From the IMG/VR virus record IMGVR_UViG_3300050015_001049, positions 1-43,546 of that record: DNA of 43,546 nucleotides; one strand, written 5' to 3'. Each line of letters begins with the position of its first letter. Within the stretch, counting starts at the first letter, position 1. The notes under the pieces are model-generated. The model searched no databases. It worked only from the letters and a program-made list of their open reading frames with translations, and was not told the DNA's origin. Made by a program: the position numbers and the translations under genes. This stretch comes from a virus. Below, one piece after another: positions 28,133-29,305 of this stretch.

Positions 28133-29305
28133 ATGGAAGAAAAAGATTCCTCTAAACAAAGGCAGTCTCAACCAGAGCAAGTTGACTCTGCCGAACCCCC
28201 TCTCGTCTGCTCGACCCAATCGCAGGTATTCAAAAATAAATTCTATCCAAGCGTAACCTCAGAGGAATGGGGCAGCTGGAAATGGCAAATTAAAAATAGC
28301 ATTATTTCTTATGAAGAGTTGTCCCGAATTTTCGGATCATCTGATTATGAAATTTCTGATGATATTAATTTGCCTCTTAGAATTACTCCTTATTACGCAA
28401 GTACTATCAAAGACCCAAAAGGTCCTATTGGTCGCTGTGTAATTCCTTCTCATGAAGAACTTACTGTTACTGAAAATGAAGAGTCAGATTCTCTTCATGA
28501 AGAACAATATAGTCCTTTGCCGAATCTTGTCCATAGATATCCGGACAGAGTTCTGTTTTTAACTACGGATTTTTGTTCATCTTATTGTCGATATTGTACT
28601 CGATCTCATATGGTATCTCGTCAAAGTGATATTAATAAAAAAATGTGGGATAAAGGAATAGAATATATTCGTCAGCATACAGAAGTTCGGGATGTTCTTC
28701 TTTCTGGAGGTGATCCTCTAACAATGAGTGACGAATCTATTGAGTATCTATTGAAAAATATTAGGGCTATTGAGCATGTTGAATTCTTACGTATTGGAAC
28801 TAAGATTCCGGTTGTTTGTCCTCAAAGAATTACACCTGAATTATGTTCAATGTTAAAGAAATATCATCCTCTTTTTATGAGTATTCATTTTTCACATCCA
28901 GATGAATTAACTCCTGAGGTAAAACAAGCTTGCGAAAGACTTGCTGATGCAGGTATTCCTCTTGGTTCTCAGACAGTTCTTCTTAAGGGAGTTAATGACG
29001 AAGTTGAAACTATGACTAAACTGATGCATGGATTACTCAAAATAAGGGTTCGTCCATATTACATATACGCATGTGACCTCGTACCAGGAACAAGCCATTT
29101 TAGAACTACTGTTAATAAAGGTATTCAAATTATTGCTGGATTACGTGGATGGACTACTGGCTATGCTGTTCCCCAATTCGTTGTAGATGCTCCTGGAGGA
29201 GGTGGAAAGATTCCATTACTTCCAGAATATTTTATAAAACAAGAGGGAAAAGAGATTCATTTAAGAAATTATGAAGGGAAAGAATTTATCTACACCGAAA
29301 ATTAG
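28133..29305 (+). CDS. Radical SAM aminomutase, KamA/EpmB (lysine 2,3-aminomutase) family
   Basis: 'CSSYCRYCTRS' matches the KamA cluster motif CSMYCRHCTRR. 'LLSGGDPL' PLP-region motif. 390 aa. Confidence 0.65.
   Translation: MEEKDSSKQRQSQPEQVDSAEPPLVCSTQSQVFKNKFYPSVTSEEWGSWKWQIKNSIISYEELSRIFGSSDYEISDDINLPLRITPYYASTIKDPKGPIGRCVIPSHEELTVTENEESDSLHEEQYSPLPNLVHRYPDRVLFLTTDFCSSYCRYCTRSHMVSRQSDINKKMWDKGIEYIRQHTEVRDVLLSGGDPLTMSDESIEYLLKNIRAIEHVEFLRIGTKIPVVCPQRITPELCSMLKKYHPLFMSIHFSHPDELTPEVKQACERLADAGIPLGSQTVLLKGVNDEVETMTKLMHGLLKIRVRPYYIYACDLVPGTSHFRTTVNKGIQIIAGLRGWTTGYAVPQFVVDAPGGGGKIPLLPEYFIKQEGKEIHLRNYEGKEFIYTEN

What the first reader, a model, noticed from the sequence alone, without database searches (positions are those of the whole stretch)
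28133..29305. KamA/EpmB-family radical-SAM aminomutase embedded in the NFERG array
'CSSYCRYCTRS' plus a 'SGGDPL' PLP-region motif is the hallmark of lysine 2,3-aminomutase-like enzymes (KamA, EpmB, glutamate/arginine 2,3-aminomutases). Such an enzyme is uncommon in phage genomes. Here it sits between NFERG genes 5 and 6 and is probably co-transcribed with them. EpmB makes beta-lysine that EpmA attaches to a conserved Lys of EF-P. The NFERG leader carries an invariant-context Lys (RG-x-DPK). A speculative link is that the aminomutase supplies a beta-amino acid for modifying the leader or a host translation factor. A second, unrelated radical-SAM gene lies at 15976-16899.
Basis: partly seen in the sequence, partly recalled or inferred. 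Interest (0 to 1): 0.6.

Follow-up and report, generated by a model that had tools for sequence, protein, structure and literature searches.

The report
Phage lysine 2,3-aminomutase, stand-alone host-derived gene
A huge phage of Bacteroidota-like hosts carries an intact, selectively maintained copy of a bacterial radical-SAM enzyme that should turn lysine into beta-lysine, but it is not the EF-P-modifying type, has no partner ligase, and its position inside the NFERG gene array is specific to this phage lineage.

Summary
The ORF at 28133-29305 (+, 390 aa) is a real, intact KamA-family radical-SAM/PLP aminomutase. All cluster, SAM, PLP and lysine-binding residues of Clostridium LAM (PDB 2A5H, E 4e-122) are kept. 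It is not EpmB: Salmonella EpmB is a remote outgroup, the EpmB model scores 248 bits against a cutoff of 369, and no EpmA/GenX or EF-P gene was found in the window or in any KamA-carrying phage sequence examined. It belongs to an uncharacterised 'short' KamA subfamily that lacks the zinc Cys268 and the CxCxxC tail. In bacteria of many phyla, this subfamily gene is usually followed by one or two Ddl-like ATP-grasp ligases and often a GNAT. Phages carry kamA almost always alone (77 of 79 IMG/VR loci). The window gene sits in a 100%-bootstrap clade of huge-phage genes. It is under strong purifying selection (dN/dS 0.07-0.09) and has phage-like codon composition. NFERG neighbours are found only in the window's own branch. 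Sister branches place kamA beside SET-domain, DNA-methylase and glucosyltransferase genes. The leader Lys is not invariant. Best reading: a host-derived auxiliary metabolic gene that makes free beta-lysine. The fate of that beta-lysine is unknown. Family call correct; EF-P and leader-lysylation idea unsupported.

The parts
28133..29305 (+). kamA-like ORF, 390 aa: radical-SAM/PLP lysine 2,3-aminomutase of the 'short' KamA subfamily
28532..28549 (+). HRYPDR motif (aa 134-139 = LAM H111-R116), invariant H, R, Y, R across the family alignment
28574..28606 (+). CSSYCRYCTRS: CxxxCxxC [4Fe-4S] ligands C148/C152/C155 (= LAM C125/C129/C132) and R157 (= LAM R134, binds the lysine carboxylate)
28703..28720 (+). 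SGGDPL: SAM-binding GGD motif (aa 191-196 = LAM S169-D172). It is not the PLP site.
   Evidence: role from published LAM structure (memory)
29000..29002 (+). E290 at the position of the LAM zinc ligand C268 (GVNDE instead of GVNDC), a signature of the short subfamily
29075..29077 (+). D315 = LAM D293, a ligand of the lysine epsilon-ammonium; invariant
29186..29209 (+). D352 (= LAM D330) to K359 (= LAM K337, PLP Schiff-base lysine) in DAPGGGGK. Only 31 residues follow, with no CxCxxC tail.
27619..28077 (+). upstream NFERG-type gene (5th of the array), 55 bp before kamA
29329..29733 (+). downstream NFERG-type gene (6th), 23 bp after kamA
26291..32708 (+). uninterrupted same-strand gene run containing kamA. 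The next + strand terminator-like site with a T-rich tail is at 33084-33111.

Best explanation
The gene encodes a functional, stand-alone L-lysine 2,3-aminomutase. Shown: it has the full catalytic inventory of the Clostridium enzyme, namely the CxxxCxxC cluster, the SAM-binding GGD motif, the PLP lysine, the Arg that binds the substrate carboxylate, and the two Asp that bind the lysine epsilon-ammonium. It belongs to a 'short' KamA subfamily without the zinc/CxCxxC tail. It forms a tight clade of huge-phage genes under strong purifying selection and has phage-like codon composition. In bacteria, the same subfamily gene is usually followed directly by Ddl-like ATP-grasp ligases, often two, with a small GNAT further downstream. 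Phages almost always carry only kamA. Inferred: with reduced [4Fe-4S] and SAM the enzyme makes a 5'-deoxyadenosyl radical. That radical abstracts H from C3 of PLP-bound lysine, and the amino group migrates from C2 to C3, giving beta-lysine (3,6-diaminohexanoate). The gene was captured from a Bacteroidota-type host cassette. It acts as an auxiliary metabolic gene in an anaerobic host, raising flux from the lysine pool into beta-lysine. The beta-lysine is then either consumed by the host's own ligase/acetyltransferase enzymes or accumulates as such. Its position inside the NFERG array reflects insertion in, or expansion of, a plastic early-gene region and is not a functional coupling.
For: Domain and family. 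Catalytic and substrate residues are invariant in a 19-sequence alignment: R157, D315, D352, K359, C148/152/155, SGGD. Short-subfamily signature, GVNDE with a 31-aa tail versus GVNDC with an 80-aa CHCxAC tail in the canonical clade. The core phage clade has 100% bootstrap, canonical LAM is a separate clade, and EpmB is a remote outgroup. The closest cellular proteins are Bacteroidales KamA at 61-64% identity. Cassette: the two Bacteroidales loci read kamA, two ATP-grasp genes, GNAT, AsnC; of 64 GTDB loci with at least 4 kb downstream, 55 have a ligase within 1.5 kb downstream, 46 have two, and 40 also have a GNAT somewhere downstream. Phages lack the partners: none in the window or in 14 phage loci, none of the KamA-carrying genomes matched in GenBank phages, the IMG/VR pattern scan found none, and only 2 of 79 IMG/VR loci have one adjacent ligase. 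dN/dS is 0.07-0.09 against close relatives and 0.12-0.22 against distant ones. GC3 is 0.22, like other window genes. The rest of the window is an auxiliary-gene region: NAD synthase, PncA-like, NAPRTase, dCMP deaminase, PTH2 and tRNAs. Bacteroidota host hints: a TonB_C protein, an SprB repeat, and a TonB-dependent receptor in the syntenic relative L001.
Against: No enzyme of this short subfamily has been assayed, as far as I could find, and it scores below the curated lysine-aminomutase equivalog cutoff (448 against 525 bits), as do its cellular relatives (466). Substrate and stereochemistry are therefore inferred from conserved residues only. The product of the cellular cassette is unknown, so 'feeds the host pathway' is conjecture. 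The host of this phage is not identified, and whether it owns the cassette is unknown. Only 43.5 kb of a genome probably several hundred kb long was available, so partner genes could lie elsewhere. The exact cellular sister group is unresolved (NJ supports of 0-14%).
Confidence: 0.6

Rival explanations
1. The enzyme is EpmB-like and supplies beta-lysine that a ligase attaches to a Lys of host EF-P or to the conserved Lys in the NFERG leader.
For: kamA lies inside the NFERG array on the same strand. The arrangement is kept in close relatives L001, L003 and L102-L108. Most leaders have DPK.
Against: The EpmB model scores 248 bits against a cutoff of 369, and Salmonella EpmB is a remote outgroup. 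No EpmA/GenX or EF-P homolog was found in the window, the phage loci, or the KamA-carrying GenBank phages. The leader Lys is replaced by L, I, R, Y or M in 26% of 544 motifs and in 2 of 12 window copies. Core-clade relatives L100 and L101 have kamA with no NFERG genes nearby. The NFERG motif occurs in at least 1544 clusters, far more widely than this kamA.
Confidence: 0.04
2. kamA is one step of a phage-encoded modification pathway acting on DNA, a virion protein or a small molecule. It may work with the SET-domain methyltransferase and the DNA-modification genes that flank it in sister lineages.
For: In L002, L099, L100, L101 and their IMG/VR equivalents, kamA lies among AGT-like glucosyltransferase, GT25, SET, C5 DNA methylase, dTMP-kinase-like, ThyA-like and sugar epimerase genes. 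The SET-domain protein is the commonest non-mobile neighbour (18 of 89 loci). In the distant locus L166 the SET ORF overlaps the kamA start by 8 bp. In Vibrio phage GR11A a KamA-like gene lies downstream of queC and is followed by a GNAT.
Against: None of these neighbours is present in the window, L001 or L003. Most SET co-occurrences descend from one clade, so there are few independent events. The residues that bind free lysine are intact, and no transferase that could attach beta-lysine is evident. The region is a general early/nucleotide-metabolism block, where adjacency is weak evidence.
Confidence: 0.12
3. The enzyme acts on a substrate other than free L-lysine (for example ornithine, arginine or a lysine derivative), so the product is not beta-lysine.
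For: It scores below the lysine 2,3-aminomutase equivalog cutoff. The Glu and Arg aminomutase models also score high, at 395 and 372 bits. The subfamily is uncharacterised and differs in its N-terminal 'EPP' region and its C-terminal tail.
Against: R157, D315 and D352 (LAM R134, D293, D330) are invariant. From published work (memory), glutamate 2,3-aminomutase replaces the two Asp by Lys and Asn. The best-scoring model is the lysine enzyme.
Confidence: 0.1
4. The gene is a neutral passenger (moron) with no role in infection, or a RiPP-like maturase of NFERG 'precursors'.
For: It is host-derived and sits in a plastic region. Homing-endonuclease genes lie next to kamA in several phages: L096 GIY-YIG, L101 NUMOD3, L002 DUF7487 insertion. 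A radical-SAM gene amid leader-bearing small genes looks superficially like a RiPP cluster.
Against: dN/dS is 0.07-0.09, and the gene is retained across a clade diverged to 60% identity with completely rearranged neighbourhoods. Composition is ameliorated to the phage. PLP chemistry needs a free alpha-amino group, which is incompatible with internal peptide lysines. The NFERG proteins are 100-600 aa multi-module proteins, not short precursors.
Confidence: 0.05

Closest known systems
Clostridium subterminale lysine 2,3-aminomutase (KamA/LAM, PDB 2A5H)
   Same: Alignable over residues 37-389 at E 4e-122. Same CxxxCxxC, SGGD, HRYPDR, R134, D293, D330 and K337 equivalents, so the same radical-SAM/PLP 1,2-amino shift on lysine is expected.
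   Different: Lacks the zinc ligand C268 (Glu here) and the roughly 50-residue C-terminal extension with CxCxxC. Has an extra N-terminal region with a conserved 'EPP'. Falls in a different clade from 2A5H and its Bacteroidales relatives L081/L088. Not linked to lysine-fermentation genes.
Cellular 'short' KamA of the kamA / Ddl-like ATP-grasp x2 / GNAT cassette (e.g. Tenuifilaceae P0062, Bacteroidales P0081, Prolixibacter denitrificans L026)
   Same: 61-64% identity to the closest members, the same length class, the same GVNDE and 31-residue tail, and the same sub-threshold score on the AblA/KamA equivalog model. This is the family from which the phage gene derives.
   Different: The phage gene has lost the ligases, the GNAT and the AsnC regulator. 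It has a shorter N-terminus (about 27 residues fewer) and phage-like AT-rich codons.
EpmB (YjeK), EF-P beta-lysylation pathway
   Same: Same KamA superfamily fold and cofactors. Also a shorter form without the C-terminal extension: the Salmonella EpmB ORF is 342 aa.
   Different: 33% identity. HMM score 248 against a cutoff of 369. Remote outgroup in the tree. Salmonella epmB sits next to efp with epmA nearby, and none of that is present here.
AblA/AblB (N-epsilon-acetyl-beta-lysine osmolyte pathway of methanogens)
   Same: The best-scoring NCBIfam model is lys_2_3_AblA. The cellular cassette also contains an acetyltransferase.
   Different: Below the equivalog cutoff. There is no acetyltransferase in the window. 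The cellular cassette has two additional ATP-grasp ligases that are not part of AblAB.
KamA-like genes of Vibrio phages GR11A/GR7B and Pseudomonas putida phages (Lauda group)
   Same: Phage-borne KamA-family genes with the same lysine-type active-site residues.
   Different: 38-41% identity and a separate deep clade with 100% bootstrap. The context differs: topoisomerase II downstream in both groups, with queC upstream and a GNAT downstream in the Vibrio phage only. This looks like an independent acquisition.

Membership tests
KamA family radical SAM proteins (TIGR00238 / Pfam Radical_SAM + LAM_C) | Score above the curated family cutoff | tested here: met
   TIGR00238 347.6 bits against 199.2. 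LAM_C 72.4 against 26.7. Radical_SAM 53.9 against 29.5.
KamA family radical SAM proteins (TIGR00238 / Pfam Radical_SAM + LAM_C) | CxxxCxxC cluster motif, SAM-binding GGD/E motif and PLP-binding Lys in the Gly-rich loop | tested here: met
   C148/C152/C155, S191-D194, and K359 in DAPGGGGK, aligned to LAM C125/129/132, S169-D172 and K337.
Lysine 2,3-aminomutase, canonical KamA/AblA equivalog (TIGR03820) | Score above the equivalog cutoff | tested here: not met
   447.9 bits against 525.4. The model matches positions 3-360 of 417, so the C-terminal part is missing. Cellular relatives fail as well (466 bits).
Lysine 2,3-aminomutase, canonical KamA/AblA equivalog (TIGR03820) | Lysine-binding residues (Arg134 for the carboxylate; Asp293 and Asp330 for the epsilon-ammonium) | tested here: met
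   R157, D315 and D352 are conserved and invariant in alignment A1. The residue roles are from the published 2A5H structure (memory).
Lysine 2,3-aminomutase, canonical KamA/AblA equivalog (TIGR03820) | Inter-subunit zinc site (Cys268 plus C-terminal CxCxxC) | tested here: not met
   GVNDE instead of GVNDC, and the protein ends 31 residues after the PLP Lys. Canonical-clade members L081 and L088 have an 80-residue tail with CHCPAC/CHCEAC.
Lysine 2,3-aminomutase, canonical KamA/AblA equivalog (TIGR03820) | Catalytic conversion of L-lysine to beta-lysine | not testable with these tools
   Needs an anaerobic enzyme assay.
EpmB (EF-P beta-lysylation) | Score above the TIGR03821 cutoff and placement in the EpmB clade | tested here: not met
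   248.2 bits against 369.3. Salmonella EpmB is a long-branch outgroup.
EpmB (EF-P beta-lysylation) | Partner ligase EpmA/GenX, with efp linkage | tested here: not met
   tblastn with Salmonella EpmA and EF-P found nothing significant in the window, 14 phage loci or 79 IMG/VR loci. None of the KamA-carrying GenBank phages matched EpmA. The rest of this phage's genome was not available.
Glutamate / arginine 2,3-aminomutases | Equivalog score, and replacement of the two lysine-binding Asp | tested here: not met
   394.6 bits against 650 and 372.3 against 600. Both Asp are retained.
Cellular 'short KamA' cassette (kamA + 2 Ddl-like ATP-grasp + GNAT) | Sequence signature: GVNDE, short tail, N-terminal EPP region, nearest-neighbour identity | tested here: met
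Cellular 'short KamA' cassette (kamA + 2 Ddl-like ATP-grasp + GNAT) | Adjacent ATP-grasp ligases and GNAT | tested here: not met
   Absent from the window (Pfam on the ORFs scanned, which include every ORF of 135 aa or more; tblastn). Absent from 77 of 79 viral loci.
AblA/AblB osmolyte pathway | Adjacent beta-lysine acetyltransferase | tested here: not met
   No GNAT in the window.

The most novel reading that the evidence does not exclude
Huge phages repeatedly capture, and keep under selection, only the first enzyme of a widespread but uncharacterised bacterial beta-lysine pathway (kamA / two ATP-grasp ligases / GNAT). Under this reading, phage-made beta-lysine is a deliberate manipulation of that pathway. 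Alternatively it is the substrate of phage SET-domain or other modifying enzymes, giving a lysine-derived modification or solute needed for infection. That would be a new class of phage auxiliary metabolism and a handle on an unknown bacterial metabolite.
Probability: 0.2. Interest if true: 0.6.

Novelty: new member of a known kind. Interest (0 to 1): 0.35.

Why it matters
Two by-products are worth knowing.

First, the phage gene identifies a large, apparently unstudied KamA subfamily. In Bacteroidota, Desulfobacterota, Spirochaetota, Planctomycetota and Proteobacteria it usually heads a conserved kamA / ATP-grasp / ATP-grasp / GNAT cassette. That implies a widespread beta-lysine-derived product of unknown identity.

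Second, at least 89 viral contigs, many of them 200-640 kb long, carry kamA almost always without the downstream genes. In this phage clade the gene is under strong purifying selection. Together this suggests that diverting lysine to beta-lysine is useful during infection of anaerobes. Both points can be tested with a simple enzyme assay and with metabolomics.

Tried and rejected
**Promoter and terminator scans.** The sigma-70 promoter scan of 23.5-33.5 kb found 53 sites against 44.6 +/- 7 in shuffles, so it says nothing about kamA transcription. The T4 late-promoter box TATAAATA is not enriched (11 against 8.8 expected).

**TAG recoding.** Reading TAG as sense does not lengthen genes in this window. 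The standard code fits despite the suppressor tRNA.

**Rfam.** The window yields only tRNAs. There is no riboswitch near kamA.

**Literature.** Searches on aminomutase with phage, hypermodification, huge phages, ATP-grasp and beta-lysine found nothing relevant. The 'KamA' hits were the author name Kamada.

**PHROGs and Pfam.** PHROGs has no KamA family and no NFERG family. Pfam gives nothing for the NFERG proteins.

**Tree resolution.** The NJ tree could not resolve which cellular group is sister to the phage clade (supports of 0-14%), so 'Bacteroidales donor' rests on best identity only.

**Partner search.** Clustering of neighbours across 13 and then 90 loci found no universal partner. Pfam on the immediate neighbours of kamA in seven other phage lineages gave only an SMC-like ATPase, a GIY-YIG endonuclease and weak hits.

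**RiPP-maturase reading.** Considered and rejected on chemistry and on the size of the NFERG proteins.
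Full report
**Observation**

The ORF at 28133-29305 (+) is real: ATG start, 390 aa. It matches Pfam Radical_SAM (3.2e-14) and the LAM_C domain (4.9e-20). It passes the NCBIfam KamA-family model TIGR00238 with 347.6 bits against a cutoff of 199.2. It aligns to Clostridium subterminale lysine 2,3-aminomutase (PDB 2A5H) at E 3.9e-122 over residues 37-389.

One correction is needed. SGGD is the SAM-binding GGD/E-type motif. 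The PLP lysine is K359 in DAPGGGGK.

The gene lies between the fifth and sixth NFERG-type genes, on the same strand, with gaps of 55 and 23 bp. The only + strand terminator-like site with a T-rich tail is at 33084, after the array.

**Active site**

By alignment to 2A5H, every residue known to matter is present. These are the cluster cysteines C148/C152/C155 (LAM C125/129/132), HRYPDR, R157 (R134), S191-D194, D315 (D293), D352 (D330) and K359 (K337). All are invariant in a 19-sequence alignment of phage and cellular relatives. From published work on LAM (my memory, not tested here), R134 binds the substrate carboxylate and D293/D330 bind the lysine epsilon-ammonium, and glutamate 2,3-aminomutase replaces the two Asp. 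On this basis the substrate is predicted to be free L-lysine.

The protein differs from the canonical enzyme in two ways. The zinc ligand C268 is Glu, and the chain ends 31 residues after the PLP lysine. Canonical-clade members (Bacteroidales L081 and L088, which group with 2A5H at 100% bootstrap) have GVNDC and an 80-residue tail with CHCxAC.

**Which KamA**

| NCBIfam model | Score (bits) | Cutoff (bits) |
|---|---|---|
| AblA/KamA equivalog | 447.9 | 525.4 |
| Glutamate aminomutase | 394.6 | 650 |
| Arginine aminomutase | 372.3 | 600 |
| EpmB | 248.2 | 369.3 |

All four equivalog models fall below their cutoffs.

The homolog search found a set of proteins of about 389 aa at 60-92% identity, on contigs up to 405 kb. 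Next came Bacteroidales and Tenuifilaceae 'KamA family radical SAM protein' entries of 413-424 aa at 61-64% identity. These cellular proteins end where the phage protein ends and also fail the equivalog cutoff (466 bits).

An NJ tree of 125 sequences gave the following:
- The window gene sits in a phage clade of 18 representatives with 100% bootstrap.
- That clade lies inside a broad 'short KamA' radiation whose internal order is unresolved.
- Canonical LAM is a separate clade.
- The Pseudomonas and Vibrio phage KamA-like genes are a separate deep clade (100%).
- Salmonella EpmB is a remote outgroup.

**Cellular context of the subfamily**

In the two Bacteroidales genomes examined, kamA is followed by two D-Ala-D-Ala-ligase-like ATP-grasp genes, a RimI-like GNAT and an AsnC/Lrp regulator.

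Across 64 GTDB species loci with at least 4 kb downstream:
- 55 have an ATP-grasp ligase within 1.5 kb downstream of kamA.
- 46 have two ligases.
- 40 have two ligases plus a GNAT somewhere downstream.

These loci span Bacteroidota, Desulfobacterota, Spirochaetota, Planctomycetota and Alpha- and Gammaproteobacteria. Several of the nine exceptions are the canonical-LAM and Verrucomicrobia clades. I found no paper on this cassette. Its product is unknown. A beta-lysine-containing small molecule is the obvious guess.

**Phage context**

None of the cassette partners is in the window. Pfam was run on the window ORFs I scanned, which include every ORF of 135 aa or more, and tblastn was run as well. 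None is in the flanks of 14 other phage loci. In GenBank phages, none of the KamA-carrying genomes matched the ligase. A pattern scan of IMG/VR for the ligase found nothing. Among 79 IMG/VR kamA loci, only two (L156, L161) have one adjacent Ddl-like ligase.

Salmonella EpmA/GenX and EF-P find nothing in any of these sequences.

An alignment-based scan shows at least 89 IMG/VR contigs with a KamA-family gene, many of them 200-640 kb long. The gene is therefore rare among catalogued phages but recurrent in huge phages.

Clustering the neighbours of 90 loci finds no universal partner. The commonest neighbours are GIY-YIG homing endonucleases (19 loci) and a SET-domain protein (18 loci).

**Relation to the NFERG array**

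The motif (consensus ES-x-NFERG-x-DPK-xx-MGIG) occurs 11-13 times between 23.8 and 32.3 kb, four of them inside one 597-aa ORF. NFERG genes flank kamA in the window's own branch: L001, L003, L102-L108 and L120, at 83-92% KamA identity.

The next branches of the same 100% clade look different. L002 and L099 have only one to three genes with a related leader (EKF-x-EESDPI-x-DMGIG). L100 and L101 have none. In these branches kamA lies in a different conserved block:
- AGT-like glucosyltransferase
- GT25
- SET
- a 115-aa protein
- kamA
- DUF5661
- C5 DNA methylase
- dTMP-kinase-like
- epimerases
- ThyA-like

None of those neighbours is in the window, L001 or L003.

A profile of the leader finds 1544 cluster representatives at E <= 1e-3, with up to 12 motifs per protein spaced about 110 aa apart. 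The motif is therefore a widespread module-boundary element and is unrelated to kamA distribution.

The Lys of DPK is present in 10 of 12 window copies and in 74% of 544 motifs in the wider family. It is not an obligate modification site.

**Is the gene functional in the phage?**

dN/dS is 0.09, 0.066 and 0.074 among the window, L001 and L003. It is 0.12-0.22 to the distant clade members. GC3 is 0.22, like other window genes. The N-terminus MEEKDSSK is conserved among relatives. The gene has thus been resident and selected for a long time, while its surroundings were completely rearranged.

**Interpretation**

The best-supported reading is a host-derived, stand-alone lysine 2,3-aminomutase acting as an auxiliary metabolic gene.

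The window is an accessory region of a large T4-like phage. It encodes gp30.3, dCMP deaminase, NAD synthase, a PncA-like isochorismatase, NAPRTase, PTH2, a TROVE/Ro-like protein, an MVP-shoulder/SPFH protein, GIY-YIG endonucleases and at least nine tRNA genes. Hints of a Bacteroidota host are a TonB_C protein, an SprB repeat, and a TonB-dependent receptor in L001.

What happens to the beta-lysine is inferred, not shown. Use by the host's ligase/GNAT enzymes is the simplest idea, because the phage gene derives from that cassette. The SET and DNA-modification neighbourhood in sister lineages, and the 8-bp SET-kamA overlap in the distant locus L166, keep a modification-pathway reading alive at low probability.

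The EF-P and NFERG-lysylation idea and a RiPP-maturase idea are not supported.

**Verdict**

The family call is correct. The speculative link is not supported. The gene is a new member (a phage clade) of a known enzyme family, and it belongs to an uncharacterised subfamily. Interest is moderate to low for the gene itself. It is somewhat higher for the cellular cassette and for the pattern of recurrent kamA-only capture by huge phages.

Noticed in passing
window 3344-3419 (+): A suppressor tRNA with anticodon CTA (reads TAG) scores 57.8 bits as a genuine tRNA. TAG is the rarest stop in the window (3 of 54 long ORFs), but reading TAG as sense does not extend genes here. Recoding, if any, would concern other (late?) regions of the genome.
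   Followed up: partly
window 23845-32303 (+); proteins P0121-P0270: The NFERG leader (ES-x-NFERG-x-DPK-xx-MGIG) is a widespread module-boundary motif. It hits 1544 cluster representatives at E<=1e-3, with up to 12 copies per protein spaced about 110 aa apart. The window's 597-aa ORF (30915-32708) carries four. It looks like a polyprotein or processing-site architecture. No Pfam or PHROG family covers it.
   Followed up: partly
window 27587-27622 (+): A truncated leader copy, 'MNFERGGDIKS*', lies in another frame immediately before the start of the NFERG gene at 27619. It is a remnant of array turnover.
   Followed up: no
window 27619-28077 (+), aa 97-139: The C-terminal part of this NFERG protein (ARTIGIDLVPVIPMSAPSGNSLYLDYKY) weakly resembles the N-terminal conserved segment of the T4 major capsid protein Gp23 (Pfam Gp23 positions 13-53, E 0.048).
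   Followed up: no
window 15976-16899 (+): A second radical-SAM ORF of 307 aa has the motif CVNKCPFC. Pfam Radical_SAM scores 33 bits. There is no NCBIfam match, no PDB match and no informative PHROG match, so its function is unknown.
   Followed up: partly
window 153-1661 and 4194-5921 (+): Two proteins unusual for a phage: a major-vault-protein shoulder/SPFH (Band 7) protein and a TROVE (Ro60-like) domain protein. Rfam found no Y RNA nearby.
   Followed up: partly
window 11473-12408, 13305-13940, 18424-19608 (+): An NAD+ salvage set: NAD synthase, an isochorismatase/PncA-like protein and nicotinate phosphoribosyltransferase. There is also a PTH2 peptidyl-tRNA hydrolase at 20478-20906 and a dCMP deaminase at 9545-10051.
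   Followed up: no
window 1774-2256 (+); L001 3139-5088: The phage encodes a TonB C-terminal domain protein. The syntenic relative encodes a full TonB-dependent receptor (Plug plus barrel). Both are consistent with a Bacteroidota host.
   Followed up: no
L013 8001-12602, L014, L015-L094: A widely conserved cellular cassette reads kamA / Ddl-like ATP-grasp / second Ddl-like ATP-grasp / RimI-like GNAT (plus AsnC in Bacteroidales). Of 64 loci, 55 have the first ligase and 40 have the full set, across at least five phyla. I found no paper describing it.
   Followed up: partly
L002 10001-12309; L096 11048-11761; L101 11179-11889: Mobile endonuclease genes sit at phage kamA genes. In L002 a DUF7487 ORF replaces the 3' end of kamA, and the ancestral 3' fragment survives at 12190-12309. 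L096 has a GIY-YIG gene directly downstream. L101 has a NUMOD3 ORF abutting the stop codon. GIY-YIG genes are the commonest neighbour, present in 19 of 89 loci.
   Followed up: partly
L166 7529-9080; L002 7583-8287; L099, L100, L101: A SET-domain protein is the commonest non-mobile neighbour of viral kamA, present in 18 of 89 loci. In L166 (KamA 47% identical) the SET ORF overlaps the kamA start by 8 bp.
   Followed up: partly
L012 774-7435 (Vibrio phage vB_VcorM_GR11A): The KamA-like gene of this cultured phage lies about 4.3 kb downstream of queC, separated from it by three hypothetical genes, and is followed after 4 bp by a 155-aa GNAT. This is an AblA/AblB-like pair in a phage.
   Followed up: partly
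window 38343-38418 (+): An additional borderline tRNA-like match (Rfam tRNA 29.1 bits, at the gathering threshold) was not reported by ARAGORN.
   Followed up: no
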